A DNA stretch of 64,000 nt from Bacillota bacterium. GTDB taxonomy: Bacteria; Sysuimicrobiota; Sysuimicrobiia; Sysuimicrobiales; Segetimicrobiaceae. Of this stretch, positions 1,815 through 44,951 are shown piece after piece. A program made the translations under genes and the position numbers. The stretch lies in the NCBI GenBank assembly GCA_021324975.1, contig JAJPIA010000101.1, forward strand, positions 81,301 through 145,300, read 5' to 3'. Every line of letters begins with the position of its first letter. The stretch's first letter is position 1. A model generated the notes under the pieces. It made no database searches. It was given only the letters and a program-made list of their open reading frames with translations, and had not been told where the DNA came from.

Positions 1815-2468
1815 ATGCTCGCGGACCTCGTCACGCTGCGCACCTCGGACGCCGTCGAGCTGGACGGCGCGTTGTACCGGGCGCCCGCGCCGGTGACGCC
1901 GGCGGCGCAGGTGCTCATGGTGCACGGCCTCACCTGGAACTTCTACCGGGGGCCGTCGCGGTGGCTCCCGCCGCGCCTGGCCGGGGCGGGGTACACGTGC
2001 CTCTCGCTGAACATGCGCGACCACGATCTCGCGGAGCCGCGGGACTTCGACCTCGCGCACCACGATCTTCGCGCCGGCATCGACGCGCTCTTCGATCTCG
2101 GGGCCCACACCGTGGTCGTGCTCGGGCACGGATACGCCTGCAACAAGATCGTCCGCTACCCGGTGCGGGCGGACGACCACCGCATCGGCCACTGGATCTT
2201 GACCACAATGGGATCGGTGAAGCGGCACCGGCCCGACATCTGGCAGGCCGGCCTCGAAGCCGCGGCCGGGATGACCGGACAGATTCTGGTGGTGCAGGGC
2301 GCGATCGACGCCTCGCTCGAGGGACGGGCCAGAGGCGACGAGCTCGCCGCCGCGGCCTCGAGCGCCCGCGTCGAGGTGCGCCTCCTCAAGAGAGGCAACC
2401 ACTACTTCGATCAGCGTCACGACGAGCTCGCCGCCGCCGTGATCGGATGGCTCCGCGCTACCCTTTGA
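1815..2468 (+). CDS. Alpha/beta-hydrolase-fold protein
   Basis: ATG 8 nt after the permease stop; LMVHG oxyanion motif, VLGHGYA elbow, QGAID, GNHYF. Confidence 0.7.
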   Translation: MLADLVTLRTSDAVELDGALYRAPAPVTPAAQVLMVHGLTWNFYRGPSRWLPPRLAGAGYTCLSLNMRDHDLAEPRDFDLAHHDLRAGIDALFDLGAHTVVVLGHGYACNKIVRYPVRADDHRIGHWILTTMGSVKRHRPDIWQAGLEAAAGMTGQILVVQGAIDASLEGRARGDELAAAASSARVEVRLLKRGNHYFDQRHDELAAAVIGWLRATL

Positions 2469-2630
2469 GCGATCCCGCCGTAAGCCCGCGCATGAAGTAG
2501 CGGCCGAGGAACACGCACATCAGGAGCGGCGGGAGCGCGGCGAGCAACGCCCCGCCCATCTGCACGTTCCACTCGACGACGTAGCTGCCGGCGAGGTTGT
2601 TGAGCGCCACCGTGATCGGCTGCATGGGCT
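2458..2630 (-). pseudogene. C-terminal remnant of a MalG-like ABC permease, frameshifted
   Basis: Manual translation: QPITVALNNLAGSYVVEWNVQM / ALLAALPPLLMCVFLGRYFMRGLTAGSLKG*. Confidence 0.8.
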
Positions 2631-2631
2631 G

Positions 2632-3138
2632 CTACTGCCGCGGGGCGAACACGCCGACCGCGTCGACCTTGTGGTAGTGATCTGTACCGACCAGCATCGA
2701 CACCGCAAACTGGATGCCGCGCTCGTCGTAGATCATGCGAATGCTGTTACCGACCGGCACCATGCGCGACGGGACGCCGAGCCGGTCCTGAACCTCGTCC
2801 ATGTCGGTCCCGTAACCGAAGCCCTCGGCGGTCACAACGCCCGGCATCGCCGCGCCGACGTAGTAGACCGTGCCCGCGCTGTTGGTCTCCACGAAGACGT
2901 GCCGGTCGCGCCAGCTGTATCCGTGCGTCCCGTTGGGCTCAGAAATCCCCGGCTCCAAGAGGTTATCCGACGGCATCGGCTCCCCGAGCATCTGCGCGAC
3001 CGTGGCGATGCTCATGCCGAGCTTGATCGGCCCGATGCCGACGCCGGGCACGACGAGGTAGCGCGTCTGCTGCGCCGCGGCTGGGGATGCGGTCAACAGC
3101 ACCGCGCACACAATCGCTGCGAGGCGCGTCCCCACCAT
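2632..3138 (-). CDS. Hypothetical secreted protein
   Basis: Signal peptide ending AAA-Q; VPGVGIGPIKLGMS followed by a related second half (T.EGFGYGT...LG.P). Confidence 0.7.
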   Translation of the reverse strand: MVGTRLAAIVCAVLLTASPAAAQQTRYLVVPGVGIGPIKLGMSIATVAQMLGEPMPSDNLLEPGISEPNGTHGYSWRDRHVFVETNSAGTVYYVGAAMPGVVTAEGFGYGTDMDEVQDRLGVPSRMVPVGNSIRMIYDERGIQFAVSMLVGTDHYHKVDAVGVFAPRQ

Positions 3139-3548
3139 GTGCCTCCGTTCGCCGCTCCCGAGAAATGCCACCATCAGCATACCCAAATTGGCGCCGCGCA
3201 TACCGTGCGCCGCGGGCGCGGCACGATGGTCCGCGGATACCAGCGGCGCCGCGTTGTTCGCGGACCGTCGAAAGGGACGAACCCCGCGCGCGCGAAAGTG
3301 CGACGGGCGGGTTCGCCGGAGGTGTGTGGGAATGCGTCCTGCTGGTGTCGGTGAAGCTGATTCTCAACGGCTTTCAGGTGCACACGCACATGCAGCGCGT
3401 CGAGGCGCAGCTCATCGAACTGCGAGATCTCCTGCAACAGCCGCGGCCGGCGCCCCGGCTGCGATCCGGCGCGGTGCACGACATCGATCCGTCCGGTCCA
3501 CGCTGAGCACCGGCGGCTCGATTGTGTGCGCGCGCCCGGCGCTGTGCC

Positions 3549-3683
3549 TCAGCGCGCCTTGCGCCGCTTGGTCGCTCGCTTGGCTACGGCCGCGCGCGCG
3601 ACCCGGCGCTTCGCCCCCGTTCGCCGCGTACGCTTGCCCTTGAGCTTGGGTTTGGCAGAGCCGGCGCCGTTGCTCCCTGGCAT
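3549..3683 (-). CDS. 44-aa highly basic peptide (protamine/histone-H1-like composition)
   Basis: RBS GAGGAG 5 nt before ATG; MPGSNGAGSAKPKLKGKRTRRTGAKRRVARAAVAKRATKRRKAR*; below the ORF-track size cutoff. Confidence 0.65.
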   Translation of the reverse strand: MPGSNGAGSAKPKLKGKRTRRTGAKRRVARAAVAKRATKRRKAR

Positions 3684-3752
3684 AGTCTCTCCTCGTTGGA
3701 CCACGATCGTGTCTGTGCCGCCCGCTTGGCACGCGCTCGTCGTTCGCTGCTT

Positions 3753-6404
3753 TCATGGGCGCGCGCGGTTCTCCTGCTCACCGCGCTCAGCCTCCTCCAG
3801 CGCGCGCTCCATGGTGAGGGCGCGTCCGGTGGCCCAGGCGGCGGTGAAGACGTCCGGCGTAGCTGCCTCGCGCGCGGCCGCGACTTCTCGATCGTAGTCG
3901 CCGCGATCCGACGGCGGGAGCGGCGCGCCCAGCGATTCACGCAAGGCTTCCGCGGCGCCGAAAAGACGCGCCGCCTTCACCGCATGGCCGCGCGCCCCGG
4001 CCAGCCCGGCGAACCGTTCGAGCTGATTGGCCAGGCCGAGCGTGTCGCCGATCTCGCGTCGCAGGCCCAGGCCCCGGGTGAGCTGTGCGCGCGCCGCCGC
4101 GTGGTCTCCCTGCCGGTAGGCAACCCATCCAAGGTTGGTCAGCGCCATGGCAATGTGCTGTTTGTCTTCGTGCCGCTCCCAGATCTCGAGCGCTTGGCTT
4201 AGGAGCCGCGTCGCCTCGGCATAGTCACCTTGGCGAAACGCGGCGCGGCCGAGATTGTGGAGCGCCAGGGCTACGCCCCACTCATCGCCGAGCTCGCGTC
4301 GCAGCGCGAGGCTCTCCCCGAGCAGCGCCCGCTCCGAGGCCACGTCCCCTTCCCCGGCCGCGACGAACGCGAGGTTGCCGAGGATCGTGGCGACGCCGCG
4401 GCCGTCGCCCAGCGTCCGCCACAAGGCGAGGCCCTGCTCGTAGAACCGGCGGCCCCCGGCGTAGTCGGCCTGTCCAAAGACGGCGAGGTTGCCCGCCGCG
4501 TTGAGCGCCTCCGCCCGCACGGGCCCAGGCGCGTCCGCGCCGGCCTGGAGCAGCGCGTGCAACCACTGCCGGCCTTCCGCAAAGTAGCCGCGGACGAACC
4601 AAAACCGCCACGCCGCGCCGACCAGCCGCAGGCCCGCCTCCGCGCGGCCGCTCCGGAGCGCCCACTCCAGCGCCGTCCTGAGGTTATCGTGCTCGGTCTC
4701 GAACCGCTCGAACCACGCGGCCTGCGTCGAGCCGACGAGACCCGGGGCCGCGCGCTCCGCAAGCTCGACGTACCATTGGAGGTGCCGGTCCGAAACGGCC
4801 GCGGCCTCTCGCGACTCGTGGAGGCGTTCGGCGCTGTATTGGCGGACCGTTTCCAGGAACCGGTAGCGCATGGTTCCCGCGTGCTCCTCCGCTTGGACCA
4901 GCGACCTCAAGACGAGCTGACTCAGCAGGTCCAGCACGGCGAGCGGCCGGTCCTCCGTGGTCTCGCAGACTCTTTCCGCCGCCTCGAGCGTCCAGCCGCC
5001 GGCGAACACCGCGAGACGCCGCAGCAGTGTCTGCTCGCCGGGCGAGAGCAGCTGGTATCCCCAGTCGATCACGGCGCGGAGCGTCTGATGGCGCGCCGGC
5101 GCTGTGCGGCTTCCCTGCTTGAGCAACGACAGCCGATCCTCGAGCCGCTTCGCGAGCTCCGACACCGGGAGCGCCGCGACGCGGGCGGCGGCGAGCTCAA
5201 TGGCCAGCGGGATCCCGTCGAGCCGGCGGCAGACCTCCACGACCGCCGGGGCGTTCTCGGGGGTGAGGGCAAATGCGGGCTGGGCCGCCGCTGCCCGCTC
5301 CGCGAACAACCTCACGGCCTCCGACGCGGGAGCGGTGGCCGCGGTGACCGGCACTCCAGCCGCCGGCAACGACAGCGACGGGACGCGCATCGTGATCTCG
5401 CCGGGGATCCTGAGCGGCTCGCGGCTGGTCGCGAGCACCCGCACGCGCTCGCACGCGCCGAGGATGGCGCCGATTGCGGCCGCGCAGGCGTCGATCACAT
5501 GCTCGCAGTTGTCCATCACCAGCACCATCGCACGATCGCGAAGCGCCTCGGTGAGCCCGGTCAACCAGGGCCGGCCCGGCATTTCCCGCACGCCGAATGT
5601 CGCGGCCACGGTCTGCACGACGAGCCTGGGGTCGGTCAGGGAGGCGAGCTCGACGAGCCACACCCCATCCGGATACTGCGGCACGAGATCCGCGCCGACC
5701 CGGAGCGCAAGGCGCGTCTTGCCGCAGCCGCCGGTCCCGGTCAGGGTGACGAGACGGCTCGTGGCGAGGACGCGGCCGACCTCGGTCCGCTCCCGGTCGC
5801 GCCCGACGAAGCTGGAGAGTTCCGGGGGGAGATTGTGACGCCGTGCCGGCAGCGCCCGGAGCGGGGGAAAGTCAACCGCGAGCGCCGGTGACATCACCTG
5901 GAAGATCTGTTCCGGCTGGCGCAGGTCTTTGAGCCGGTGGATGCCGAGGTCCCGCAGGCCGAGTTCCGGCGGCAGCGAGCCCGTCACCAAACCCTCGGTC
6001 GCCCGCGACATCAGGATTTGGCCGCCGTGCGCCGCATTGCAGATACGGGCGGCCCGGTGGACATCGAGCCCGATGTACTCACCCGCCACCCGCACCGGCT
6101 CCCCGGTGTGCACGCCCATCCGCACGCGTAGACGCGTCTCCGGCGGCCACGCGTGCTCGGTGAGCGCACGCTGCGCCGCCACCGCCGCGACCACGGCCGC
6201 GCGGGCGCTGGCAAACGCCACCAGGATCGCGTCTCCCGCCACGTCCATCTGGGTGCCGCCCTGCCGTGCAAACTCTGCGTGGAGCACGCGGCGGTGCTCG
6301 TCGAGCAGGTCGGCATACCGGGCGTCACCGAGATGCTGGAGCAGGTTGGTGGAACCTTCGATATCGGTGAAGACGAACGTGACGATCCGTGAGCGGCCGG
6401 ACAT
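3753..6404 (-). CDS. Class III nucleotide cyclase - STAND (NB-ARC-like) ATPase - TPR protein; alternative start 6461
   Basis: FTDIEGST, GDA, RMGVHTG, HRAARI; Walker A GTGGCGKT; DNCEH; GIPLAIELAA; C-terminal TPRs. Confidence 0.92.
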   Translation of the reverse strand: MSGRSRIVTFVFTDIEGSTNLLQHLGDARYADLLDEHRRVLHAEFARQGGTQMDVAGDAILVAFASARAAVVAAVAAQRALTEHAWPPETRLRVRMGVHTGEPVRVAGEYIGLDVHRAARICNAAHGGQILMSRATEGLVTGSLPPELGLRDLGIHRLKDLRQPEQIFQVMSPALAVDFPPLRALPARRHNLPPELSSFVGRDRERTEVGRVLATSRLVTLTGTGGCGKTRLALRVGADLVPQYPDGVWLVELASLTDPRLVVQTVAATFGVREMPGRPWLTGLTEALRDRAMVLVMDNCEHVIDACAAAIGAILGACERVRVLATSREPLRIPGEITMRVPSLSLPAAGVPVTAATAPASEAVRLFAERAAAAQPAFALTPENAPAVVEVCRRLDGIPLAIELAAARVAALPVSELAKRLEDRLSLLKQGSRTAPARHQTLRAVIDWGYQLLSPGEQTLLRRLAVFAGGWTLEAAERVCETTEDRPLAVLDLLSQLVLRSLVQAEEHAGTMRYRFLETVRQYSAERLHESREAAAVSDRHLQWYVELAERAAPGLVGSTQAAWFERFETEHDNLRTALEWALRSGRAEAGLRLVGAAWRFWFVRGYFAEGRQWLHALLQAGADAPGPVRAEALNAAGNLAVFGQADYAGGRRFYEQGLALWRTLGDGRGVATILGNLAFVAAGEGDVASERALLGESLALRRELGDEWGVALALHNLGRAAFRQGDYAEATRLLSQALEIWERHEDKQHIAMALTNLGWVAYRQGDHAAARAQLTRGLGLRREIGDTLGLANQLERFAGLAGARGHAVKAARLFGAAEALRESLGAPLPPSDRGDYDREVAAAREAATPDVFTAAWATGRALTMERALEEAERGEQENRARP

Positions 6405-6535
6405 ATCCGATTCCCCGAAGCGCACCCGTCCCGTCGAGCCGGCGGCGCGTCCATTCCCCATGCGCGACGACGAGCCCTTTTCGGTGAGCCGTCGGGAGGT
6501 CCTGCCGTCGGCGGCCGATTCCCGTCGGGCCGCCG

Positions 6536-7345
6536 TCAGACGGCCGACCGAATGGTCCAGAAGTCGTCGGTGAGGTGCGGCGCCGTGAGGTATGCGTACG
6601 GGAGCAGGAAATAGCCGCCCCGTCCCCAGCGGCTGCCCCAGGAGTTGCGCACGAGCAGGCGGCGTGCGCCGTCCTCGTACCCGACGGCGAGGACACTGTG
6701 GCCCCGCCCGAGGTGGCGATCGCGTTGCGTAGGCAGCGGCGCCACACCCGACCGCGCGACGGCCGCGGTCTCGAAGCTCGAGTAGACCACCATGCCGAAC
6801 AGCACGGGATGCCCGGACGCCAGGCAGGCCCGCACCGCGGTCAGCCGTCCGTCCCGCGCCAGGCGATGATAACGGATCGCGCGGTGCGGCGCGGCGGCCC
6901 GAAAACAGCGCGGCGGAGGAGCGAGCTCAAACCGCGGCACCTCGTACGGCCATAGTGTCTCCGCGCAGACCCCATGCCGCGCGACACACTTCAACGCGTC
7001 GCGGATCGACGATCCGGTATCGCACCGCGCAAATCCGCGTGCCGCGCGGGTGTTGTAGTAGATGAACATGCGCGAGGGGACAAAATCGGGCGCGAGGGCC
7101 TCCCGCCGCCGCAGGTACTGAAGCGCCGCCGCGACCGCGTTGGCGGTGCAACTCTCCAACTGGCCCTGATCGTAGACCGGCGGGCACTGTGGGCGGAGGT
7201 CAACACGACGCGGCAGCCGCCGCGCGAGGGCGGCGGGCCATGTGTAGGGGACGTCCCGCCGGTCGGGAAGGTCCCGGACCCATCCATAGTAATGTCGCCG
7301 TCGACGGCCCGCCTGCCGCGACCGGGCGGCCTCGCGCGCACTCAG
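6536..7345 (-). CDS. C1A papain-like cysteine peptidase without signal peptide; start uncertain (possibly CTG overlapping the crp stop)
   Basis: YGW..DLPD.RD; VDLR; QGQLESCTA (Gln/Cys), GHSVLAVGY (His), RNSWG (Asn). Confidence 0.88.
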   Translation of the reverse strand: MSAREAARSRQAGRRRRHYYGWVRDLPDRRDVPYTWPAALARRLPRRVDLRPQCPPVYDQGQLESCTANAVAAALQYLRRREALAPDFVPSRMFIYYNTRAARGFARCDTGSSIRDALKCVARHGVCAETLWPYEVPRFELAPPPRCFRAAAPHRAIRYHRLARDGRLTAVRACLASGHPVLFGMVVYSSFETAAVARSGVAPLPTQRDRHLGRGHSVLAVGYEDGARRLLVRNSWGSRWGRGGYFLLPYAYLTAPHLTDDFWTIRSAV

Positions 7346-8058
7346 GAGAGTTCCGCCCGCAACCGTTCCGGATCGACCACGATGAGGCGCTGCCGTTCGT
7401 GGCGGATCAGTCCCCTGTCCGTGTAGTACCGCAGCCACTTGTTGACGCTTTCCCGCGTCGCGCCGACCATCCCGGCCAGATCGCCCTGCGTCAGCCGGGA
7501 TGCGACCGTGACGCCGTGCGGTCCCGAGCGGCCCCGCGTGTCGGCCAGTTCGACCAGCAGCTTCACCAACCGTGTGCGGACGTCGAGAAACACCCCGTCG
7601 TGGATGCGGCTGTCCGCGCCGCGCAGCCTCCGGCTGACCGCGGCAAGCAGCACGAGCGCCGCCTGCGGGTGCGCGGTCAGGAAGCTCGTAAAGGCGTCTC
7701 GCGGCAGGATCCACAGCACGGAGGGCACGGTGGCCACGGCTTCGGCAGACCGGGGTTCGCCGTCAAGGAGCGAGAGCTCGCCGAGAAAATCGCCTCGGCC
7801 GAACAGCGCGAGCACGACCTCGTCCCCGCGAGACGATCCGAGAACGATCTTGACCTCGCCCTCCTCGACGATGTAGAGGGCGGTCCCCGGGTCGCCTTGA
7901 TGGAAGATGACCTCACCGGCGGCGTAGCGGTGCCGCCGCATGAGCGCGGCGACGCCGTCCAGCGACGCCGGCGCCAACTGCGACAGCAGCGGAACCTGCG
8001 CGAGCAGTTCCCGGAGCACCGCGGCGCTGCCTCCGATCGAGGTCGGTTTTCCGTCCAC
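7342..8058 (-). CDS. Crp/Fnr family regulator with cNMP-binding motif
   Basis: FLGELSLLDGEPRSA; HTH TQGDLAGMVGATRESVNK. Confidence 0.93.
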   Translation of the reverse strand: MDGKPTSIGGSAAVLRELLAQVPLLSQLAPASLDGVAALMRRHRYAAGEVIFHQGDPGTALYIVEEGEVKIVLGSSRGDEVVLALFGRGDFLGELSLLDGEPRSAEAVATVPSVLWILPRDAFTSFLTAHPQAALVLLAAVSRRLRGADSRIHDGVFLDVRTRLVKLLVELADTRGRSGPHGVTVASRLTQGDLAGMVGATRESVNKWLRYYTDRGLIRHERQRLIVVDPERLRAELS

Positions 8059-8160
8059 GCGCTCCCTCCACCGCCGCCGGAGCGGCGCATGTCATCCGCC
8101 GGCGCACCCTTCGACGATCACCCGCCCGCACCTCCGCCGCGGCTCGGGCTCGACCTCGAG

Positions 8161-9054
8161 CTACGAGGCGAAATCGGCGAGCGCCCGCCCCCGGCTCAAG
8201 CGCCGCAGCTTGGCGAGGGCTTTGAGCTCCAGCTGCCTCGCTCGTTCGCGCGTGACCCCGAACACCTTGGCCACTTCCTCCAGGGTGCGCGGCTGATTGT
8301 CGTCCAGTCCAAAGCGAAGCATGATGACCTGGCGCTGGCGCATCGGCAGCGCATTCAGCAGGTCCGCAAGGTGCGCTCTCAAGGCGGAGGCAAACGCCGC
8401 CTCGGCCGGATCGGGCGCCGTGGTGTCCTCGAGCAGGTCACCGAGGCATCCGTCCTCGTCGTTCGCGATCGGCGCTTCGAGCGAGACCGGCATCCGCGCG
8501 ACTTGCTGCGCCGCGCGCACCCGCGCAACCGGGTGGTCCATGCGCTCCTCGATCTCTTCGGCGCTCGGCTCGCGCCCCAGCTCTTGCGCCAGATGCTGTT
8601 GGACGCGGGTCAGCTTGTTTACCTGGAGCGCCATGTGCACGGGAATCCGGATCGGCCGGCTGTGGACGCCCCGGGCCCGCACGAGCGCCTGCCGGATCCA
8701 CCAGGTCGCGTACGTCGCGAACCGGTGGCCGCGGCGCCAGTCGAACCGCGCGACGGCCTGCATGAGCCCGAGGTTGCCTTCCTGGATGAGGTCGGACAGC
8801 GCGACGCCGGCGCCCGCGTATCGCCTGGCGAGGCTCACGACCAGCCGCAGGTTGGCTTCGATCAGCTGCCGCCGGGCGTCCGCGTCGCCGCCTTCCGCGC
8901 GCCTGGCCAGCTCCACCTCTTCGACCGCCGACAGCAGCCGCACGCGGCCGACTTCGTCTAAATACATGCGGACGAGATCACTCCCGGCACCGTCGCCACC
9001 CAGCAATGGTGCGCGGTCCTCCGCCGTGTGCGCCCCCAGCTGCTCGTGCAGCAT
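8161..9054 (-). CDS. Sigma-70 family sigma factor, RpoD/RpoS-like without region 1.1 (group 2)
   Basis: RBS GGAGG; region 1.2 VRMYLDEVG; ANLRLVVS, DLIQEGNLGL, YATWWIRQA; TLEEV..FGVTRER. Confidence 0.93.
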   Translation of the reverse strand: MLHEQLGAHTAEDRAPLLGGDGAGSDLVRMYLDEVGRVRLLSAVEEVELARRAEGGDADARRQLIEANLRLVVSLARRYAGAGVALSDLIQEGNLGLMQAVARFDWRRGHRFATYATWWIRQALVRARGVHSRPIRIPVHMALQVNKLTRVQQHLAQELGREPSAEEIEERMDHPVARVRAAQQVARMPVSLEAPIANDEDGCLGDLLEDTTAPDPAEAAFASALRAHLADLLNALPMRQRQVIMLRFGLDDNQPRTLEEVAKVFGVTRERARQLELKALAKLRRLSRGRALADFAS

Positions 9055-9220
9055 CCCCTCTCCTCCCCCCGGCCGCCGCCGCGCTTGACCGCAGCGGCCT
9101 CTCGGCCTCCGGCTCTCCCGCGACGAGGCAGGGCCGTTTTGCGCCACGCTCCGCCCAGGTCACGGCCCCACGATAACCGCACCCCGCCGCCGGCTGAAAT
9201 CGCGCGTGTCACACGAGCGG

Positions 9221-9251
9221 TGTGAATTGCGTCACTGTGATGTGCTTCACA
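9221..9251. promoter_or_regulatory. Two back-to-back CRP-type boxes
   Basis: TGTGA-attgcg-TCACT (9221-9236) and perfect TGTGA-tgtgct-TCACA (9236-9251), upstream of the sigma/crp cluster. Confidence 0.8.
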
Positions 9252-9516
9252 TGCGGATGGTGGCGCCGTTCAAGGCGGCGCGGGGAGCGGCCGGCTAGAT
9301 TGGCAAGGACAGGGGCGTCCCGGGAGGAACGGGGCGGACGGGGGTGGGCGACATGCCGTCTGGGCTTACGTCAGGGGTGGATCCGGCAAGCGCGGTGGGG
9401 GTGCTCCTGTGGTGCCTCATCCTGGCGGTCGCGATCGTGGCACGCCCCAGGCACGACGAAGCCGCATGGTCGCGCGGCAGCGCGCACGACCCCGACGACG
9501 AGCCGCGTTAGCGCGA

Positions 9517-10029
9517 TCAGCGCGGCAGCATCCGGACCATGAGGGCTTCCCGGAGGCCGGGGTCGGAGGGGTGCGGTTTGGTTCGCCCGGTCTCGGCGAA
9601 CCCCTGGCGCGCGTAGAGCGCCTTGGCCGCGCGGTTCGTGTCCGTGACCCATAGTTGGACGCAGCTGGCGCTGCGCTCACGGGCCCACGCCGTAACGGCT
9701 TCGACGAGCGCCGCTCCGACACCGCCCCGCCGCCGAGCCGGATCTACCCACATGGACGCCAGCCTTACGATGCTTGGATAGTCACGGTGCACGAATCCCC
9801 GAGCCATGCCGTACCACGTCTCGCCTTCCTCGGCGACGAACATCGTGTATGCTGCGCCGGCTGCATGCTCCCGGCAGACGCCGTCCCAAAACTCCTGCGG
9901 TTGCCCAAGCGCCTCCGCGTGCGTCCACCCAAAGGCCGCCGGGGCCTCGGCTAGCGCCCGCAGGCGGATCGCGCGAAGGCGCAGGCCTTCATCGGGACGG
10001 ACACGGCGGACTTGTACGGCGCTGCGCAT
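9517..10029 (-). CDS. GNAT family N-acetyltransferase
   Basis: SMWVDPARRRGGVG acetyl-CoA motif; N.AAKALY...GF. Confidence 0.88.
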   Translation of the reverse strand: MRSAVQVRRVRPDEGLRLRAIRLRALAEAPAAFGWTHAEALGQPQEFWDGVCREHAAGAAYTMFVAEEGETWYGMARGFVHRDYPSIVRLASMWVDPARRRGGVGAALVEAVTAWARERSASCVQLWVTDTNRAAKALYARQGFAETGRTKPHPSDPGLREALMVRMLPR

Positions 10030-10098
10030 GAGGCCTTGGTTCGGCTCGCCCCCACTCCGCCCTGCTGGGCAATTCGGAAACCCGGCTGGCAACACCCG

Positions 10099-10143
10099 AA
10101 AAAGAAAGAACGGCCCTCGGGGGGAGGAAAAGGGCCGCTCTCT
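10099..10143 (-). terminator. Intrinsic terminator with C-rich loop
   Basis: GAGCGGCCCT-TTTCCTCCCCCCG-AGGGCCGTTC followed by TTTCTTTTT. Confidence 0.7.
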
Positions 10144-10256
10144 CGCCTTGCTCGCTTGCATACATATTGTACCCGCGTGGGAACACGTCTAACAGTCCAT
10201 TCGCAAACCCAACCACCGAAAAACCCCGAAGGCCGACCGGCGCGGGCCTCGACAGG

Positions 10257-11405
10257 TCACGAGACCGTCCTGGCCGAGGAGCGCGGCCGCCTCTTCATTT
10301 CGTATAGCCGGTGATCCGCCGTCTCCAGGAGCCGTTCCGCGCTTGTTCCGTCTTCCGGCCACGCCGCCACGCCCCAACTGAATCGGACATCCAGATTGGC
10401 CCCCTGCCCGACATCGGCCGGAATGAGGTCGAAGGTTGCGAGCCGGCTCAGCATGACCGTGGCTTTGACGGCCGTGGTTTCGGGAAGCAGCAGCACAAAT
10501 TCGTCGCCGCCGTAGCGCGCCGCGAGATCGGTCTGCCGCAGGTAGCCCCGCAGGATCTTGCCGACGTGCGTCAGCACCTGGTCCCCGACCGTGTGGCCGT
10601 AGGCGTCGTTGATGCCCTTGAACCCGTCGAGATCGATGCTCACCACGCTCAGCGGGTCGGTAGATCGGGCGCAGCGTTGAAGCTCGGCGTGGAGCCTATC
10701 CAGCAGCCCGCGGCGGTTGGCCAGGCCGGTCAGCGCGTCGGTGGTCGCCGCTTCCTGCGCGCGCACGCGTTCCTCCATCTCGCGCTGGAGCGCGAGGCGC
10801 GCCTCCTCCGTCGTGGCGACGGAGTGGCGGTGGCTGTTGCACAGAAGCGTGGTAAAGATGGCCGTCGCGGTGACCGGCAGGGCGTGCGCGATCACCGCCA
10901 CGTCGTTGCGGCCGTATGAATAGACCCACGTCGGCGCCACATAGTTAAGGATCACGTGGTGCAGGGCCGTCAGCACCAGCACGAACCAGCCCAACCGCCA
11001 GTCGGAATAGACGGTGACCAGCGCCATGACCATGAAGAAGTGGAAGTGCATCTCGATCGATCCGCCGCTCATGAAGACGAACAGATACGAGTAGACCGTC
11101 AGCGCCGCGCTCATCAGGAGCCGCCACGCGTAGTGGTTGCGAAAGCTGTCCCGGAGGAGCGTGGGGACCGCCGCCGCGAGCAATCCGACCGCGGAGGACG
11201 TGAGCGCTTCCGTGGGGCTCAGCACGCGCCAGGAGAACGGGGACGGGAGTAGCACGCTCAGCTTGAGATAGGAGTTGGTACAAGCCATCAGCAGCGTGAA
11301 CCCGAAGTGCCACCACAGCAGCTTGAGCATGAATCGATCGATGCTGCGGTAGTTGAGCGCGGCCGCGTAGTTGCCGTTGATATCGGACGTCAGGTCCGGC
11401 TTCAT
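10257..11405 (-). CDS. Membrane-anchored diguanylate cyclase
   Basis: TM domain with EMHFHFF; DALTGLANRR, DLDGFK.IND.YGH, I-site RQTD, GGDEF. Confidence 0.93.
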   Translation of the reverse strand: MKPDLTSDINGNYAAALNYRSIDRFMLKLLWWHFGFTLLMACTNSYLKLSVLLPSPFSWRVLSPTEALTSSAVGLLAAAVPTLLRDSFRNHYAWRLLMSAALTVYSYLFVFMSGGSIEMHFHFFMVMALVTVYSDWRLGWFVLVLTALHHVILNYVAPTWVYSYGRNDVAVIAHALPVTATAIFTTLLCNSHRHSVATTEEARLALQREMEERVRAQEAATTDALTGLANRRGLLDRLHAELQRCARSTDPLSVVSIDLDGFKGINDAYGHTVGDQVLTHVGKILRGYLRQTDLAARYGGDEFVLLLPETTAVKATVMLSRLATFDLIPADVGQGANLDVRFSWGVAAWPEDGTSAERLLETADHRLYEMKRRPRSSARTVS

Positions 11406-40833: not shown

Positions 40834-41139
40834 TTACTTGATGGGACGCCCCGGCCGTAGCTCCTGCGTTCGTTTGGCGAAGTCCCCGCCCGCGTGGTGC
40901 ACGCGCTTCAGCCGTTGCACCTCCCGTTGGAGCGCACTCTCCACGAGTTGTGACAGGGTCAGCCTCTCTGGCGGTCCGGACAACGCGACGGTGACATCCC
41001 GCAATTCGTCCACCAGCACCTCCGCAAGGTAAAAGGTCACCCGGACCTTCCGCTGGGCACCTTCCTCCGGCGCTCGAACCGGCACCGGATGCCGCGCGCT
41101 GCCCTTTGTCCGACCCTCTCCGTTGTGCCTTGTGTTCAT
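40834..41139 (-). CDS. Ribbon-helix-helix-like DNA-binding protein (plasmid centromere-binding type)
   Basis: KVRVTFYL..LVDELR...TLSQLVE.AL.REV.RL...G..F....LRPGRP. Confidence 0.6.
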   Translation of the reverse strand: MNTRHNGEGRTKGSARHPVPVRAPEEGAQRKVRVTFYLAEVLVDELRDVTVALSGPPERLTLSQLVESALQREVQRLKRVHHAGGDFAKRTQELRPGRPIK

Positions 41140-41224
41140 CAGCGCTCCCGCACCGTTCATCAGTGGCATCATATCACGTCGGACGGCTTTTGTACACATT
41201 TCATTCAAATCACACAAATGACCC

Positions 41225-41254
41225 TTGACAATAAAGACCATAAATACGTACAAT
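41225..41254 (+). promoter_or_regulatory. Sigma70-type promoter of hsp20
   Basis: TTGACA-18-TACAAT in an AT-rich patch. Confidence 0.75.
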
Positions 41255-41301
41255 ACTGTGCGAAACCAACCATGATGATCCGACGAAGGGAGGCCTGTGT
41301 C

Positions 41302-41790
41302 ATGATCAGCTCTACGCGCTGGAACCCGTTTGCGGACCTGCTCGCCATGCAGCGCGACATGGCCAATTTCGTCAACCGAGCGCTAGGAGGCCCGGACGCC
41401 TCGAGCGGTCCCTCGGGGCGAGGCGTGGCATGGACTCCTGGGACGGAGGCATTCTACAAGGACAATGCGCTGGTGGTCCGAGCATGGCTGCCGGGCGTGG
41501 ATCCGAACAAGGTCGACGTGCAAGTGGTGGGCAACATGCTGACGTTGAAGGGGGAACGCGTTTTCCCCTATCAACTGCCCGAGAACGCGTATTTGTATAG
41601 CGACGTGGCATACGGACCGTTTGAGCGCGTGTTGACGTTGCCCGAGACCCTCCAGTTCGATCGCATCTCAGCGAGGTACGCAGCCGGCGTCCTGGAGATC
41701 ACCATCCCGGTTCACGAAGGCGCATTGCCCAAGAAGGTGTCAATCGACGTTCAACCCGAGCCGAAGACGGTTGCGGCCACCACCAGATAG
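41302..41790 (+). CDS. Hsp20/alpha-crystallin small heat-shock protein
   Basis: WNPF; LPGVD, LTLKGER, YG.FER.L.LP, A.Y..GVLEI.IP. Confidence 0.93.
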   Translation: MISSTRWNPFADLLAMQRDMANFVNRALGGPDASSGPSGRGVAWTPGTEAFYKDNALVVRAWLPGVDPNKVDVQVVGNMLTLKGERVFPYQLPENAYLYSDVAYGPFERVLTLPETLQFDRISARYAAGVLEITIPVHEGALPKKVSIDVQPEPKTVAATTR

Positions 41791-41808
41791 CCGCGCCCTC
41801 GCCCCGGG

Positions 41809-41849
41809 CGGATGGCGCGAGGTGCAACGAGTCAGCCTCGCGCCATCCG
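41809..41849 (+). terminator. 14-bp-stem hairpin after hsp20
   Basis: CGGATGGCGCGAGG / CCTCGCGCCATCCG; no clear U-tract. Confidence 0.45.
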
Positions 41850-42095
41850 GTGAAGTTGGTCATGGGGACCAGCCTTCGCGTGTTCTACGTCGTCTGTCGC
41901 GGTTGTCAATCGTCGCTACCGATCATCGGCCTGGCGGCTCACGCCGGTGCCCTTCATGCGGCGATGTGCGCGACGGTGCTTGGAAGCGGTTACCGCAGAT
42001 GCCCCAGTTGTGGGCAGGGGTACGAGTACCGAGCCGAAGACGTCCGCTGGTACGATTCGTCCACCTTCCAAGAGCACCCGAGCGAGTGCGATTGA
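41850..42095 (+). CDS. Small putative Zn-ribbon protein
   Basis: CRGC and CPSC pairs. Confidence 0.45.
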   Translation: MKLVMGTSLRVFYVVCRGCQSSLPIIGLAAHAGALHAAMCATVLGSGYRRCPSCGQGYEYRAEDVRWYDSSTFQEHPSECD

Positions 42096-42265
42096 GCGTG
42101 ACAACGTAACTGCGGCGGGGCTCGATCGAACCATCACCGACGGGGCCGTCGTCTGGGCATGATGCGACCTACACGGTACGGGGTACGGTCTAACGGGCAG
42201 CGCGCGCACAAGATCAACGTGTCCCGCACCAGGCGCGACAACTGGTCTGCTATGGCCGTTCGGCC

Positions 42266-44431
42266 TTAAGGACTGGGCAAGAAGACCCCGTAATCCTCGA
42301 CCGGCTCAACGATGCACGGCCCGCTGATATCGAGAACGTCGATCCGAGACCGTGTACCTTCCCGCCAGCACCGGAACGCGACGCGCGCGGACCCGACCCT
42401 GAGATTCTCGACTTCGACCCAGTCGAGCCAGGACGGCAGCGCGGGCGCAACGTAGAGCCGATCTCGAGGGGCGTCTGCCCGAAGGCCGAGCAGCATCTGC
42501 AGCAGCAGAAACGCGCTGCCGGCCGCCCACGCCTGCGGGATATTCGCGCCCAGGTACTGCACCGGGAATCCTCCATCGGCACGCGCCAGACCGGACAACA
42601 ACTCGGGCAGCCGGTACCGCTGAAAGGCAGCGGCGGCATCCAGGATGGCCCGGGCGATCCGAGCGGTTGCTGCCACATCGCCGTATCGCCGACAGCCGGC
42701 CGCAATGAGGGAGTTGTCATGGGGCCAGACCGCGCCCCGCTGGTACGCGTAGGGGTTGAACGCGGGATGCGCCGCGCTGAGCGTGCGGATGCCCCACCCG
42801 CTCCACATATCCTCCCGCATCAGGCGGGCGATCACGCGCGGTGCGCGCGCAGGGGCGGCAATCCCGGACCACAGACAGTGCCCGGCGTTGCTGACGGCGC
42901 TCGTAATGGGATCTTTGTGCGAGTCCAGGCCGAACGCAAACGTCCCCTCGTCATCAAGCCAGAAGGCCGCATCAAACCGCTCGGCGAGGTTCCGTGCTTC
43001 CTCGCGAAGCCGGCCTGCCCGCTCCGGCTCGCCCACGGCCTCGTAGAGCACCGCCATCCGGCGCTTCGCGTCATACGCATACCCTTGCAGTTCACAAAGC
43101 GCAATGGGGGGCTCGACGGGCTGGCCATCGGCGTAGACTGTGCCATCCGTGGAGTCCTTCCATCCCTGATGTTTGATGCCATGAGGCGATCGCGTCCGGT
43201 ATTCTTGGAATCCGTCGCCGTCCCGGTCCCCGTAACGGTCCATCCACTCCAGGCAGCGCTGGGCGATGGGCATGCGTGCGGAGAGCAATTCCCGCTCGCC
43301 CGTCCATAGATACGTCTCGTGTAGCAGAATCGGATACAGCAGCGTGGCATCAGCGGTCCCATAGTACGGTGTGTGCGGGATCTGCCCAAACCACGCCAGC
43401 TCGCCCCTGCGCAGTTCATGTGGGAGTTTGCCCGGATCGGCGTCCCGAAAGTCGTCCGAGGCTGTGGCTTGATGCTGCGCCAGCGACGCAAGCGCGCCCG
43501 CCGCGAAGGACGGATTAAGCGGGAGCGTCTGGAAGCCGGCGATCAAACTGTCGCGACCGAATAGGGCGACAAACCAGGGCGCGCCGGCCGCAAGCACCAG
43601 CGACGCCTCCGGGCCCTGCGTCGCGTCCAGCAACAGGGAGACGAGATCATCGGCCGATTGCCGTAACGTGGCCGTCACGGCTTCATCGCTCGTCCGGATA
43701 TGAGTGGACGCCGCGTGCCACGCGTCTACGATGGTCGGACGCGCGGCCGGGAAAGCTTCGCCCCGGAGCGACGTCGGAAGATGGACGATATCGTCGCGCT
43801 CGGGCGAGAGCTGCACCCTGGCGCGCCATCGCGCCCCTGGCGGAAGCGTCAGCTCGAACAGCAGCGCATGACGTTCGTATCGAGCGGACGTGGACGACTC
43901 GACAATCCGATACAACGCCTGGGTGCGGTAGCCGTTCCGATTGTACGCTACCGTGAGTTGTTGGGTGTCAGCGTCCCAAACCGTCGTGATCGCCCGGCGT
44001 ATACGCGGGTGATGGCTCCGTACCTCGAACACGTCCGCAAAATCTGTTCCGATTTCGAGCTCCAGGGTTAGCCGGACTGGTTCACGATGATAATTGACGA
44101 GCACGAAATCTTCGTGCATCGCGCTCGATACGCGCCGCTCGACGGTGAGACCAACTACGTTCTTGGGAATCGGTCCCGCGGCGCTAAGCAGCGCGACATT
44201 CGTGAACTCGAATCGCGCCGCGGTATGAGAAACGGATGCTGACGTCACGAGCTTCCACTTGCGTCCGTTGATGCGATACTGATAGTGCGACAGGAATCGG
44301 GTGTCGTGCGTGAAAAATCCTTGTTCAGCGCGGCTTTGGATCCCAGCGTCGGGCTTGCTCACGATGAACGCGAGGCCGCGGTGAACCGTAATGGTGTCCG
44401 GGCCGATTTTGATGTCGCCCGGCACCAGCAT
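42266..44431 (-). CDS. Amylo-alpha-1,6-glucosidase / glycogen-debranching family glycoside hydrolase
   Basis: DTRFLS, AGAPWF.ALFGRDS, PGK.PHE.R, QGWKDS, YQRG.VWPHDN, PQAWAA. Confidence 0.93.
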   Translation of the reverse strand: MLVPGDIKIGPDTITVHRGLAFIVSKPDAGIQSRAEQGFFTHDTRFLSHYQYRINGRKWKLVTSASVSHTAARFEFTNVALLSAAGPIPKNVVGLTVERRVSSAMHEDFVLVNYHREPVRLTLELEIGTDFADVFEVRSHHPRIRRAITTVWDADTQQLTVAYNRNGYRTQALYRIVESSTSARYERHALLFELTLPPGARWRARVQLSPERDDIVHLPTSLRGEAFPAARPTIVDAWHAASTHIRTSDEAVTATLRQSADDLVSLLLDATQGPEASLVLAAGAPWFVALFGRDSLIAGFQTLPLNPSFAAGALASLAQHQATASDDFRDADPGKLPHELRRGELAWFGQIPHTPYYGTADATLLYPILLHETYLWTGERELLSARMPIAQRCLEWMDRYGDRDGDGFQEYRTRSPHGIKHQGWKDSTDGTVYADGQPVEPPIALCELQGYAYDAKRRMAVLYEAVGEPERAGRLREEARNLAERFDAAFWLDDEGTFAFGLDSHKDPITSAVSNAGHCLWSGIAAPARAPRVIARLMREDMWSGWGIRTLSAAHPAFNPYAYQRGAVWPHDNSLIAAGCRRYGDVAATARIARAILDAAAAFQRYRLPELLSGLARADGGFPVQYLGANIPQAWAAGSAFLLLQMLLGLRADAPRDRLYVAPALPSWLDWVEVENLRVGSARVAFRCWREGTRSRIDVLDISGPCIVEPVEDYGVFLPSP

Positions 44432-44469
44432 ACGGGCATCCACGACTGATGAACGGCGTGAGCGTGCGT

Positions 44470-44652
44470 TTACACGGTATTCGCGAAGTCCCGCATGAAT
44501 CGTTCCAGCGCGTCGATCGCCGCCTGAACCTGCTTCACCACGTCTTTGACCGACGGGTATTCGCCCATTCCCTTGAGCCCCACCGCCACGCGACGAAGAT
44601 CGCGCTGGCAACTCGCAGCCGCATCTCGCAACACCGTGATCTTTGCCGCCAT
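44470..44652 (-). CDS. Small helical hypothetical protein
   Basis: RBS AGGAGGG; 60-aa ORF upstream of the hydrolase. Confidence 0.5.
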   Translation of the reverse strand: MAAKITVLRDAAASCQRDLRRVAVGLKGMGEYPSVKDVVKQVQAAIDALERFMRDFANTV

Positions 44653-44951
44653 TTGTCCCTCCTGCCCGAACGCTGCGATTGAGAATTCGGTTTGCGGAGA
44701 ACGGACGACGTTCCTCCCGCACAGAACGCCAGTGTCAGGAACACCGAGGTTACCATAGTTTCAGTGCGACCAGCTGACGCGACACCCAAGGTCGGAACTA
44801 ATAATTGGTGCCCCTGTTGGCCTACCGTCATATCTGGTATCTTTCGGCACCGCCCACTCCCTGCAGCAGAGGAAAACCATAGGGAAAGCCCGCGCCCCAT
44901 AGAATGGGGTGGTGGGGCCTGAGGTTCGGCCATGCGAGGGAGGGTGCGCCG

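What the first reader, a model, noticed from the sequence alone, without database searches (positions are those of the whole stretch)
3549..9251. Self-contained cyclic-nucleotide switch: CRP boxes > sigma70 > CRP > papain protease > cyclase-STAND-TPR > basic peptide
Seen: five co-oriented genes with short gaps. The CRP has an intact cNMP pocket (GE...RS) and a RESVNK recognition helix. The C1A protease has a full Cys-His-Asn triad and no signal peptide. Two CRP boxes lie upstream. Established: CRPs with this helix type (e.g. mycobacterial Rv3676) bind TGTGA-N6-TCACA, and STAND-TPR proteins are ligand-triggered switches. Inference: the sensor makes cNMP, CRP controls its own operon, and the outputs are an alternative sigma factor, a protease and a nucleic-acid-binding peptide. 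This could be a bistable dormancy, differentiation or defence module. I do not recognise this combination as described.
Basis: partly seen in the sequence, partly recalled or inferred. Interest (0 to 1): 0.85.

Follow-up and report, generated by a model that had tools for sequence, protein, structure and literature searches.

The report
CRP-sigma operon joined to cyclase-sensor cassette
An uncultured soil bacterium carries a cyclic-nucleotide-responsive regulator and a spare sigma factor directly upstream of a conserved trio (cytoplasmic papain-type protease, sensor-coupled nucleotide cyclase, tiny basic protein), which looks like a new wiring of known signalling parts whose function has not been tested.

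Summary
All five genes lie on the minus strand. They are a group-2-like sigma factor, a GlxR/Crp-type CRP, a xylellain-type C1A protease, a class III cyclase-STAND-TPR protein and a 44-aa basic protein. A perfect TGTGA-N6-TCACA box and an abutting one-mismatch box lie upstream.

The "self-contained five-gene switch" reading is only partly supported, because the block is composite.
- **Conserved trio.** Protease + cyclase-STAND + peptide occurs in two genera and one metagenome contig. In the second genus it has no CRP, sigma or boxes.
- **Genus-specific part.** Sigma + CRP behind the boxes occurs in four genomes of one genus. CRP relatives elsewhere in the family carry the box directly upstream of crp, so autoregulation is older than the operon.

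Support for cyclase-to-CRP coupling:
- All three cyclases of this genome sit beside a cNMP-binding gene.
- 11 of 30 cyclase-STAND loci in the family do the same.

Cautions:
- The cyclase has Asp for the adenine-specifying Lys and His for the catalytic Asn. This signature is kept in about 120 homologues, and the His is shared with the LipJ chain 1YBT.
- The genome has 3 cyclases and 9 cNMP-binding genes.
- There is no expression data.

The roles of the protease and the peptide are unknown. I rate it a new variant of a known kind, of moderate interest.

The parts
9236..9251 (-). Distal CRP box TGTGAAGCACATCACA, a perfect TGTGA-N6-TCACA
   Evidence: It is one of 3 perfect sites in the genome. A perfect box is found upstream of sigma in all four loci G000, G002, G001 and G004.
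9221..9236 (-). Proximal CRP box AGTGACGCAATTCACA (one mismatch), sharing one base with the distal box
   Evidence: It aligns with the proximal perfect box TGTGAAACACTTCACA of G001 and G004.
9170..9175 (-). -10-like hexamer TATCGT, 45 nt downstream of the proximal box; inferred promoter element
   Evidence: It is invariant in 4 of 4 aligned upstream regions. The consensus promoter scan found no site, so this is inference only.
8161..9054 (-). Group-2-like sigma-70 factor, 297 aa from ATG 9054 (the ORF is open to 9147)
   Evidence: Pfam regions 1.2, 2, 3 and 4. The RpoD model NF006666 scores 368 bits against a cut-off of 572, and the true RpoD lies on contig C89 at 610 bits. It is 57% identical to the genome's own RpoD.
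7342..8058 (-). CRP/FNR-family regulator of GlxR / mycobacterial Crp type, 238 aa
   Evidence: PF00027 98 bits, PF13545 56.9 bits. One search gives 3R6S, 4BYY, 3I54 and 3D0S at E about 1e-34, with RESVNK aligned to RETVNK.
6536..7345 (-). Cytoplasmic xylellain-type C1A cysteine protease. It is conserved from 7300. The start is uncertain: CTG 7345 overlaps the CRP stop as CTGA, or an in-frame GTG lies at 7438.
   Evidence: 3OIS at E = 4e-60; start codons; ortholog alignment, invariant C51, H201, N219.
3753..6404 (-). Class III cyclase homology domain + STAND NTPase (Walker A GTGGCGKT, DNCEH) + TPR, 883 aa (alternative ATG at 6461)
3549..3683 (-). Conserved 44-aa basic protein (net charge +18), preceded by an AGGAGAG Shine-Dalgarno sequence
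   Evidence: No family was found.

Best explanation
The locus is a genus-specific join of two older units.

Unit 1 is an autoregulated GlxR/Crp-type regulator. In this genus a spare RpoD-like (group-2) sigma gene sits between the CRP-box promoter and crp, so both are driven from the boxes.

Unit 2 is a conserved three-gene cassette: a cytoplasmic xylellain-type C1A protease, a cyclase-STAND-TPR protein and a 44-aa basic protein.

Most likely mechanism (inferred, not shown):
1. A signal read by the TPR/NTPase part drives nucleotide-dependent oligomerisation.
2. Oligomerisation brings the N-terminal cyclase domains into active dimers.
3. The cNMP produced loads the neighbouring CRP.
4. CRP binds the two boxes roughly 65 and 80 bp upstream of a predicted start site and activates the whole transcription unit.
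5. This raises CRP, the cyclase-sensor and the alternative sigma factor, which then redirects RNA polymerase.

The protease and the small protein are specific partners of this one cyclase-STAND lineage. They most likely act on the sensor's input or turnover. Their roles are open.
For: Shown:
- Gene identities.
- Perfect boxes upstream of sigma in 4 of 4 orthologous loci, with differing spacers. The proximal box and a TATCGT hexamer align in all four.
- Boxes with at most one mismatch lie about 30-120 nt upstream of crp in 7 of 15 other CRP loci of the family, including 5 of the 7 closest relatives at 56-68% identity.
- All 3 PF00211 matches in the genome are STAND/TPR-fused and lie next to a cNMP-binding gene.
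- 11 of 30 full-length cyclase-STAND loci in the family have a cNMP-binding gene adjacent, or 8 of 27 if the four orthologs of this genus count once. The arrangements vary: upstream, downstream and divergent. My arithmetic from 9 such genes per 4.43 Mb gives a chance expectation of about 2%.
- The five-gene block keeps together while its flanks differ between G000/G002 and G001.
- The trio is found in G000, G002, G001, G012 and G014 (split over two contigs) and in contig L112. G004's contig ends inside STAND.
- A profile of the peptide finds clear matches only in 5 of 94 genomes of the order, and all 5 hold the protease. Two further weak matches contain stop codons.
- The trio's cyclase-STANDs form one clade, support 100/99.
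- In the cyclase domain the two metal Asp and the Arg are kept. His at the Asn position stands in 120 of the 121 aligned sequences (query plus 120 homologues). It aligns with His of the LipJ cyclase chain 1YBT.
- The Ma1120 cyclase is active with Ala at that position (PMC4215837, passages read).
- No terminator-like site was found on the minus strand across 2400-9700.
Against: - The trio occurs without CRP, sigma or any box (at most 2 mismatches) in genus g2. Coupling to CRP is therefore not obligatory.
- CRP relatives in genera g5 and g6 mostly stand alone.
- 19 of 30 cyclase-STAND loci have no cNMP-binding neighbour within the stretches examined.
- The adenine-specifying Lys is Asp here, and the second specificity position is variable. 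The product may not be cAMP, and activity is untested.
- The genome has two further cyclases and eight further cNMP-binding matches, so cross-talk is possible.
- Boxes are not enriched genome-wide.
- Activation rather than repression is inferred only from a predicted -10 element.
- There is no transcript evidence.
- In G000 and G002 the protease lacks a canonical start codon.
Confidence: 0.5

Rival explanations
1. Two independent modules merely lie side by side. The box-sigma-CRP unit is an ordinary global cAMP regulator fed by other cyclases. The protease/cyclase-STAND/peptide cassette does something unrelated, and its cyclase-like domain may have a different product or only a structural role.
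For: - The cassette lacks CRP, sigma and boxes in genus g2.
- CRP relatives with their own box occur alone in g5 and g6.
- A canonical cyclase (KFIGD, VVNLAAR) exists on contig C117.
- The locus cyclase has non-canonical Asp and His.
Against: - cNMP-binding genes recur next to this same non-canonical cyclase-STAND family: 11 of 30 loci, including a second pair in this genome.
- The gap between crp and the protease is very short or overlapping, and the block persists in different flanks.
Confidence: 0.25
2. It is a conflict or anti-phage system. The STAND-TPR protein senses an invader, makes a nucleotide signal, and the protease (with or without the sigma factor) executes the response. This would be analogous to Pycsar, CBASS or Avs, or to the CRISPR-linked cyclic-nucleotide-activated protease that releases a sigma factor (recalled, not checked here).
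For: - STAND-TPR paralogues are strongly expanded and vary in number, from 7 matches in G000 to 21 in G007.
- The cassette is patchy: 4 of 7 genomes of genus g1 and 2 of 7 of g2.
- Xylellain-type proteases are described as prone to horizontal transfer, including into phages (PMC10380794, passages read).
- There are weak PADLOC similarities to PycC, PycTIR and MzaA.
Against: - The PADLOC hits are domain-level only. PycC scores 17.6 bits. The hit to the effector models covers only the cNMP domain. MzaA scores 276 bits against an NCBIfam cut-off of 800.
- The flanking genes that could be identified are transport, signalling and metabolic genes (ABC-type permeases, GNAT, GGDEF, EamA, amidases, cyclophilin, PLP enzyme); several flanking ORFs had no Pfam hit, and no integrase, transposase or defence family was seen.
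- The cyclase-STAND tree follows the genera.
- The cNMP receptor here is a transcription factor with family-wide autoregulatory boxes.
Confidence: 0.1
3. It is a peptide-centred module. The protease processes the 44-aa basic protein, or is held inactive by it, and the TPR domain reads the peptide as its ligand. This would resemble TPR-receptor/peptide pairs or a RiPP-like precursor/protease/TPR set.
For: - Protease, this cyclase-STAND clade and the peptide co-occur strictly, and the peptide is absent next to other paralogues or other xylellain-type proteases.
- The peptide gene lies directly 3' of the TPR gene.
- The TPR region resembles RiPP-associated and AfsR TPR models (HaaT at E = 1.9e-33 but 116 bits against a cut-off of 1125).
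Against: - The peptide has no hydrophobic leader or signal sequence and no Cys/Ser/Thr-rich core.
- No modifying enzyme or exporter is conserved beside the cassette.
- The TPR hits lie far below their cut-offs.
Confidence: 0.1

Closest known systems
GlxR (Corynebacterium) / Crp Rv3676 (Mycobacterium) regulators with class III adenylyl cyclases
   Same: The best solved relatives of the CRP are these proteins. They share the recognition-helix type (RESVNK against RETVNK) and an intact phosphate-binding cassette. The TGTGA-N6-TCACA site type for them is recalled. Cyclases are present in the same genome.
   Different: - Here the crp gene is co-oriented behind a group-2-like sigma gene and followed by a protease and a STAND-fused cyclase.
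- The boxes lie upstream of sigma.
- The residues aligned to the adenine-contacting Thr-Asn of helix C are Ala-Asp. This is my reading, and the role of those residues is recalled.
Mycobacterial cyclases Rv1900c/LipJ (PDB 1YBT/1YBU) and Ma1120 (4WP9)
   Same: They are the closest solved cyclase domains, at E = 7e-17 and 1.5e-19. LipJ has Asn where the locus protein has Asp, at the Lys position, and His at the same His position. Ma1120 has Ala at the Asn position and is active (PMC4215837).
   Different: The fusion partners differ: a hydrolase domain in LipJ, and none in the Ma1120 constructs. The locus protein has Asp at the first specificity position. That LipJ is an active cyclase with dispensable Asn and His is recalled from its structure paper and was not read here.
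Cyclase-ATPase-TPR/HTH proteins such as M. tuberculosis Rv0386, and the STAND clade of MalT/AfsR
   Same: The architecture is an N-terminal class III cyclase followed by a STAND-type NTPase (Walker A, DNCEH) and helical repeats. The TPR region resembles AfsR (E = 1.6e-21). At least 7,999 database proteins match the cyclase-NTPase part at E <= 1e-10.
   Different: There is no C-terminal or N-terminal DNA-binding domain here. Output would go through a separate CRP. The properties of Rv0386 are recalled, not checked.
Xylellain (Xylella fastidiosa C1A protease, PDB 3OIS)
   Same: E = 4e-60 over residues 3-252. The catalytic residues are shared, and it is a short single-domain form. Xylellain-type peptidases are described as widespread in bacteria (PMC10380794).
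   Different: The chain has about 30 N-terminal residues before the aligned part, while the locus protein has about 8-20. About 50%-identical relatives in other phyla show no sigma, CRP, cyclase-STAND or peptide gene within the 6-kb flanks fetched (0 of 32 loci).
Pycsar (pyrimidine cyclase + cNMP-binding effector)
   Same: It pairs a class III-like cyclase gene with a cNMP-binding-domain gene.
   Different: The cyclase match to PycC models is marginal (17.6 bits). The receptor is a DNA-binding regulator, not a TIR or membrane effector. The cyclase is STAND-gated.

Membership tests
CRP/FNR family, cAMP-receptor (GlxR/Crp) type | cNMP-binding domain plus C-terminal Crp-type HTH above the Pfam cut-offs | tested here: met
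   PF00027 scores 98 bits (cut-off 27.5). PF13545 scores 56.9 bits (cut-off 27).
CRP/FNR family, cAMP-receptor (GlxR/Crp) type | Phosphate-binding cassette Glu and Arg-Ser, and recognition helix R-E-x-x-x-K/R | tested here: met
   FGELS...PRSA and RESVNK align with FGELS...PRTS and RETVNK of 3R6S.
CRP/FNR family, cAMP-receptor (GlxR/Crp) type | Binds cAMP and TGTGA-N6-TCACA DNA | not testable with these tools
   Only the presence and conservation of the boxes is shown.
Class III nucleotidyl cyclase | Cyclase homology domain above the Pfam cut-off | tested here: met
   PF00211 scores 27.9 bits (cut-off 21.9). The Ma1120 chain matches at E = 1.5e-19.
Class III nucleotidyl cyclase | Two metal-binding Asp and the transition-state Arg | tested here: met
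   D14, D58 and R120 (883-aa numbering). They are kept in 119, 119 and 121 of 121 aligned sequences.
Class III nucleotidyl cyclase | Canonical Lys/Asp (adenine) or Glu/Cys (guanine) specificity pair | tested here: not met
   Asp54 aligns to Ma1120 K101 and Glu109 to D157. Position 54 is Asp in 83 of 121 sequences. Position 109 is variable.
Class III nucleotidyl cyclase | Transition-state Asn | tested here: not met
   His116 is kept in 120 of 121 sequences. It aligns to His in 1YBT and to Ala164 in Ma1120, which is active.
STAND NTPase (NB-ARC / MalT / AfsR-like) | Walker A GxxGxGKT, Walker B acidic motif, and C-terminal repeat sensor | tested here: met
   G223, G226, G228, K229, T230 and D298, N299, C300, E301, H302 are invariant in 61 sequences. 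NB-ARC scores 24.4 bits (cut-off 23.5), AAA_22 32.7 and TPR_12 65.8.
Papain family C1A, xylellain type | Peptidase_C1 domain with Gln-Cys-His-Asn, and close similarity to xylellain | tested here: met
   PF00112 scores 47.4 bits (cut-off 20.7). 3OIS matches at E = 4e-60. C51, H201 and N219 are invariant among 6 orthologs.
Group 2 (RpoD-like, non-essential) sigma-70 factor | Regions 1.2-4 present, but not the genome's primary sigma | tested here: met
   Four sigma-70 region families are found. NF006666 scores 368 bits against a cut-off of 572, while a C89 gene scores 610. Non-essentiality is not testable.
Pycsar | PycC cyclase plus an effector with a cNMP-binding domain fused to TIR or TM | tested here: not met
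   PycC models score 16-18 bits. The similarity to the effector models covers only the cNMP domain, and the C-terminus is an HTH.
MZA anti-phage system (MzaA sigma) | MzaA equivalog score | tested here: not met
   NF041931 scores 276 bits against a cut-off of 800, and only the sigma core aligns.
RRNPP-type TPR receptor with secreted signalling peptide | The pro-peptide has an export signal, and the receptor has an HTH or phosphatase output | tested here: not met
   The peptide has no hydrophobic segment. The receptor's output domain is a cyclase.

The most novel reading that the evidence does not exclude
The protease / cyclase-STAND-TPR / 44-aa basic protein trio is a previously undescribed intracellular, protease- and peptide-gated second-messenger switch. 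Proteolysis or sequestration of the small basic protein would be what the TPR sensor reads. The Asp/His-type cyclase domain would make a cyclic nucleotide, possibly not cAMP. In this genus that signal would have been wired through a dedicated CRP into positive feedback and an alternative sigma factor. This amounts to a cell-fate or abortive-defence decision circuit. It would also give a first functional handle on a family of at least 7,999 cyclase-STAND proteins.
Probability: 0.12. Interest if true: 0.75.

Novelty: new variant of a known kind. Interest (0 to 1): 0.42.

Why it matters
Cyclase-ATPase-TPR proteins are very numerous in soil bacteria: 7,999 of the 8,000 candidates scored reached E <= 1e-10. 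None of the 120 best hits listed carries a functional name beyond a domain label.

This locus offers a compact, testable case in which such a sensor-cyclase sits with three things at once:
- a candidate receptor (CRP) with recognisable DNA sites;
- a defined output (an RpoD-like sigma factor);
- two lineage-specific partners (a cytoplasmic papain-type protease and a tiny basic protein).

If the wiring is real, it shows how STAND sensors can act on transcription through a diffusible nucleotide rather than a fused DNA-binding domain. It would also assign a first role to cytoplasmic xylellain-type proteases. If it is not real, the locus is an ordinary autoregulated CRP beside an unrelated cassette.

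Tried and rejected
- **Complex prediction**: protease + TPR part (residues 480-883) + peptide as partner gave 'no answer' (score 0.02, mark 0.32). The controls were not run. This is no evidence either way.
- **Sequencing runs**: no RNA holder is listed. Six DNA runs hold all or part of the stretch.
- **Rfam** on 2400-10300: only a sub-threshold CcsR1 match at 10102-10184, outside the locus.
- **Consensus promoter and terminator scan**: no promoter-like site, and one terminator-like site on the plus strand only.
- **Genome-wide enrichment of CRP boxes**: none.
- **Conserved partners of protease relatives elsewhere**: none in other phyla. In some Verrucomicrobia the domain is part of giant proteins.
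- **Charge of the TPR domain** as a hint for peptide binding: not distinctive, at -5 against a median of -8 in 88 homologues.
- **Peptide family searches**: nothing from Pfam, NCBIfam, PADLOC or the Atlas. The best Atlas score was 0.85, within the range that shuffled sequences reach.
- **The 114-aa ORF 3412-3756** overlapping the peptide has no family. I treat it as a high-GC artefact.

Literature:
- ('xylellain') found 3 papers holding the term.
- searched cyclase/STAND/TPR/NB-ARC, non-canonical class III residues, papain-like + cyclase + STAND + gene neighbourhood, and Pycsar + cNMP-binding + transcription factor + STAND. No listed paper describes this gene combination.
- I saw listings and abstract starts only, except for passages of PMC10380794 and PMC4215837.
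- For PMC2447327 only reference-list text was returned.
- Supplements were not opened. Those of PMC10380794 may list this protease group.
- Recalled and not read here: the Rv1900c and Rv0386 papers, the STAND classification paper, AfsR/AfsS, the CRISPR Calp protease-sigma system, the Pycsar paper and the xylellain structure paper.

Full report
**Source.** The window is contig C104:81301-145300 of a 4.43-Mb metagenome-assembled genome with 144 contigs, 96% complete. Its GC content is about 70%. A 93%-identical relative is recorded as 'MAG: Bacillota bacterium'. High GC fills every frame with long ORFs, so gene calls below rest on domain hits and on conservation.

**Anatomy.** All parts lie on the minus strand.
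- Sigma factor: the ORF runs 9147-8161. The likely start is ATG 9054, behind a strong Shine-Dalgarno stretch, and this matches the 297-aa ORF of the closest relative.
  - It has sigma-70 regions 1.2, 2, 3 and 4.
  - It scores 368 bits on the RpoD model, whose cut-off is 572. The genome's real RpoD, at 610 bits, lies on contig C89.
  - It is therefore a group-2-like RpoD paralogue, 57% identical to the housekeeping factor.
- CRP: 8058-7342. Its best solved relatives are the entries 3R6S, 4BYY, 3I54 and 3D0S, at E about 1e-34. I recall these as GlxR and mycobacterial Crp.
  - The phosphate-binding cassette is intact, and RESVNK aligns to RETVNK.
- Protease: conserved from 7300 to 6536. It has Gln/Cys/His/Asn. 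It matches chain 3OIS ('Cysteine protease', recalled as xylellain) at E = 4e-60.
  - Relatives begin 6-8 residues before the conserved YGW-PD-PD-RD motif. There is thus neither a signal peptide nor a long propeptide.
- Cyclase-STAND-TPR protein: 6404-3753, 883 aa, with an alternative ATG at 6461.
- Small protein: ATG 3683 to stop 3549, 44 aa, net charge +18.
- No terminator-like site lies on this strand, and no known RNA family lies in the locus.

**The boxes.** TGTGAAGCACATCACA lies at 9251-9236 and AGTGACGCAATTCACA at 9236-9221.
- Genome-wide the motif is not enriched. There are 3 perfect sites against 0.93 expected, and permuted half-site controls gave 0-5. There are 33 sites with at most one mismatch, against a control mean of 38.8.
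- Conservation carries the weight instead.
  - All four orthologous loci (G000, G002, G001, G004) have perfect boxes upstream of sigma, with different spacers.
  - The proximal box and a TATCGT hexamer 45 nt downstream of it align in all four.
  - If that hexamer is the -10 element, the box centres lie near -65 and -80, upstream of a poor -35. This is the layout of an activated promoter rather than a repressed one. That step is inference.
- In other genera of the family, CRP relatives at 46-68% identity have a box with at most one mismatch 30-120 nt upstream of crp itself. This holds for 7 of 15 loci, and for 5 of the 7 closest relatives. None has a sigma gene beside it.
- CRP autoregulation thus looks ancestral. 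In this genus an RpoD paralogue has come to lie between the autoregulated promoter and crp.
- That paralogue is found only in the four operon genomes, plus a 64%-identical copy in G005 without CRP or boxes.

**The block is composite.**
- Sigma-CRP-protease-cyclase occurs in 4 of 7 genomes of genus g1.
- In G012 and G014 (genus g2) and in metagenome contig L112, protease and cyclase-STAND are adjacent without CRP or sigma.
  - In G012 the upstream genes are dnaE, a DJ-1 family gene, an MBL-fold gene and a small membrane ORF.
  - No box with up to two mismatches was found upstream of the protease in the stretches scanned: about 1.1-1.2 kb in the G012 and G014 loci, and the 433 bp available in L112.
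- The small basic ORF proved to be a real gene of this cassette.
  - It is present with a Shine-Dalgarno sequence and conserved ends (MxxxNGAGxxKP ... KGRKRR) in G000, G002, G001 and G012.
  - It is also present in G014, on the contig that continues the broken gene, and in L112.
  - A profile search of 94 genomes of the order found it in exactly these five genomes. Two further weak matches contain stop codons.
  - It is absent beside all other cyclase-STAND paralogues and all other xylellain-type proteases fetched.
- The cassette's cyclase-STANDs form one clade with 100/99 support among 31 family members.
- About 50%-identical protease relatives occur in Acidobacteriota, Verrucomicrobiota, Omnitrophota, Eremiobacterota, Planctomycetota and an Arthrobacter. 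They share no conserved neighbour, and none of the 32 loci has a cyclase-STAND beside it.
  - This fits published remarks on patchy, transfer-prone xylellain-type peptidases (PMC10380794, passages).

**Is the cyclase the source of the CRP's ligand?**
- For:
  - The genome has three PF00211 matches, all fused to STAND-like NTPase and TPR parts, and each lies next to a cNMP-binding gene.
  - Besides this locus, a CRP (48% identity) + cyclase-STAND (46%) pair without a protease lies 45 kb away on the same contig.
  - A canonical cyclase-AAA_16-TPR protein lies next to a 142-aa cNMP-binding protein on contig C117.
  - Across the family, 11 of 30 full-length cyclase-STAND loci have such a neighbour, in varied orientations.
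  - About 2% would be expected from gene density. This is my arithmetic, and related genomes are not independent.
- Against:
  - 19 loci have no such neighbour.
  - The cassette in genus g2 has none.
  - Eight other cNMP-binding matches exist in the genome.

**The cyclase active site.** I aligned the domain to Ma1120, whose residues are defined in PMC4215837 (passages): K101 and D157 for substrate, A164 at the usual Asn position, and R168.
- The locus protein has Asp, Glu, His and Arg at these four positions, and it keeps both metal-binding Asp residues.
- Among 121 aligned sequences, His is kept in 120, Arg in 121 and the metal Asp residues in 119 each. The Lys position is Asp in 83, and the second specificity position varies.
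- The LipJ cyclase chain 1YBT shows His at the same place and Asn at the Lys position. I recall that this enzyme is an active adenylyl cyclase with some guanylyl cyclase activity.
- The domain is therefore probably catalytic and under strong constraint, but its nucleotide preference cannot be read from the sequence. An acidic residue at the Lys position is more like guanylyl cyclases.

**The STAND part.**
- Walker A and the DNCEH motif are invariant in 61 sequences.
- The family is large. 7,999 of 8,000 scored candidates reached E <= 1e-10, and many are labelled only 'predicted ATPase/class 3 adenylate cyclase'.
- It is expanded in this bacterial family, from 7 matches in G000 to 21 in G007.
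- The other five copies in G000 lack any N-terminal domain.

**Mechanism.** The best-supported model is a sensor-gated cyclase feeding a neighbouring, autoregulated CRP, which drives its own operon and an alternative sigma factor.
- Class III cyclases form their active sites at a dimer interface, and STAND proteins oligomerise when they bind nucleotide and ligand. Both points are established knowledge, recalled here. Oligomerisation-driven cyclase activation is therefore the natural inference.
- Nothing shown here says what the sensor detects, or what the protease and the small protein do.
- A three-chain complex prediction gave no verdict.
- No RNA data were found.

**An unexplained detail.** G001 and G004 have GTG, and G012 and G014 have ATG, 7-8 codons before the protease's YGW motif. 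G000 and G002 have GCG at that position and no canonical start after the CRP stop.
- The only candidates are a CTG that overlaps the stop as CTGA (7345-7342), which would mean translational coupling, or an in-frame GTG at 7438 inside crp.

**Verdict.**
The block is a genus-specific join of an autoregulated CRP (plus a captured sigma paralogue) with a conserved protease/cyclase-STAND/peptide cassette. It is not a self-contained five-gene invention.
- No listed paper in six full-text searches describes the combination.
- I rate it a new variant of a known kind (cNMP-CRP signalling with STAND-fused cyclases), of moderate interest. The strictly co-occurring protease and 44-aa protein are the most original and least understood parts.

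Noticed in passing
window 7300-7345 (minus); L010, L011, L012, L013, L014: The protease has no ATG, GTG or TTG start between the CRP stop and its conserved N-terminus in G000 and G002, where GCG replaces the GTG used in G001 and G004. A CTG overlaps the CRP stop as CTGA, which suggests translational coupling or a non-canonical start.
   Followed up: partly
G000:C104:~41000-45300 (locus L048/L079, outside the window): A paralogous pair lies here: a CRP (48% identity) directly followed by a cyclase-STAND-TPR (46%), with no protease, sigma or peptide. Acyl-CoA metabolism genes lie upstream.
   Followed up: partly
G000:C117 (locus L049 5282-9324): This is the third cyclase of the genome. It has canonical Lys/Asn residues and is fused to AAA_16 and a MalT-like TPR (1178 aa). 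A 142-aa stand-alone cNMP-binding protein follows it.
   Followed up: partly
G000 contigs C134, C76, C96, C109, C101 (L117-L121): Five further STAND-TPR paralogues begin directly at the NTPase linker, with no N-terminal output domain. Relatives hold up to 21 matches per genome (G007).
   Followed up: partly
window 9517-10161 and 10257-11405 (minus): A GNAT acetyltransferase and a membrane-anchored GGDEF diguanylate cyclase lie directly upstream of the boxes. The GNAT gene is conserved there in G002 but not in G001.
   Followed up: partly
window 2632-3201 (minus): A 189-aa protein with a hydrophobic N-terminus lies here (weak DUF7738 hit, E = 0.0036). It follows the cassette in G000 and G002 (87% identity) but not in G001.
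   Followed up: no
L027, L028, L030, L032 (Verrucomicrobia records): In at least one of these records (L028, a 1,245-aa protein with the Peptidase_C1 domain at its C-terminus) the xylellain-type protease domain is part of a giant protein; long ORFs cover it in the others. Proteins with an FGE-sulfatase domain lie in the same loci (L027, L032).
   Followed up: partly
L014 6402-6770 (G012): In genus g2 a 122-aa ORF with one hydrophobic segment and no family lies just upstream of the protease, where genus g1 has crp.
   Followed up: no
G000:C12:2693 and C25:13953: These are the only two other perfect TGTGA-N6-TCACA sites in the genome. One is at the 3' end of an ORF. The other lies in a stretch of about 1 kb without a confident ORF. 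Their neighbouring genes were not identified.
   Followed up: partly
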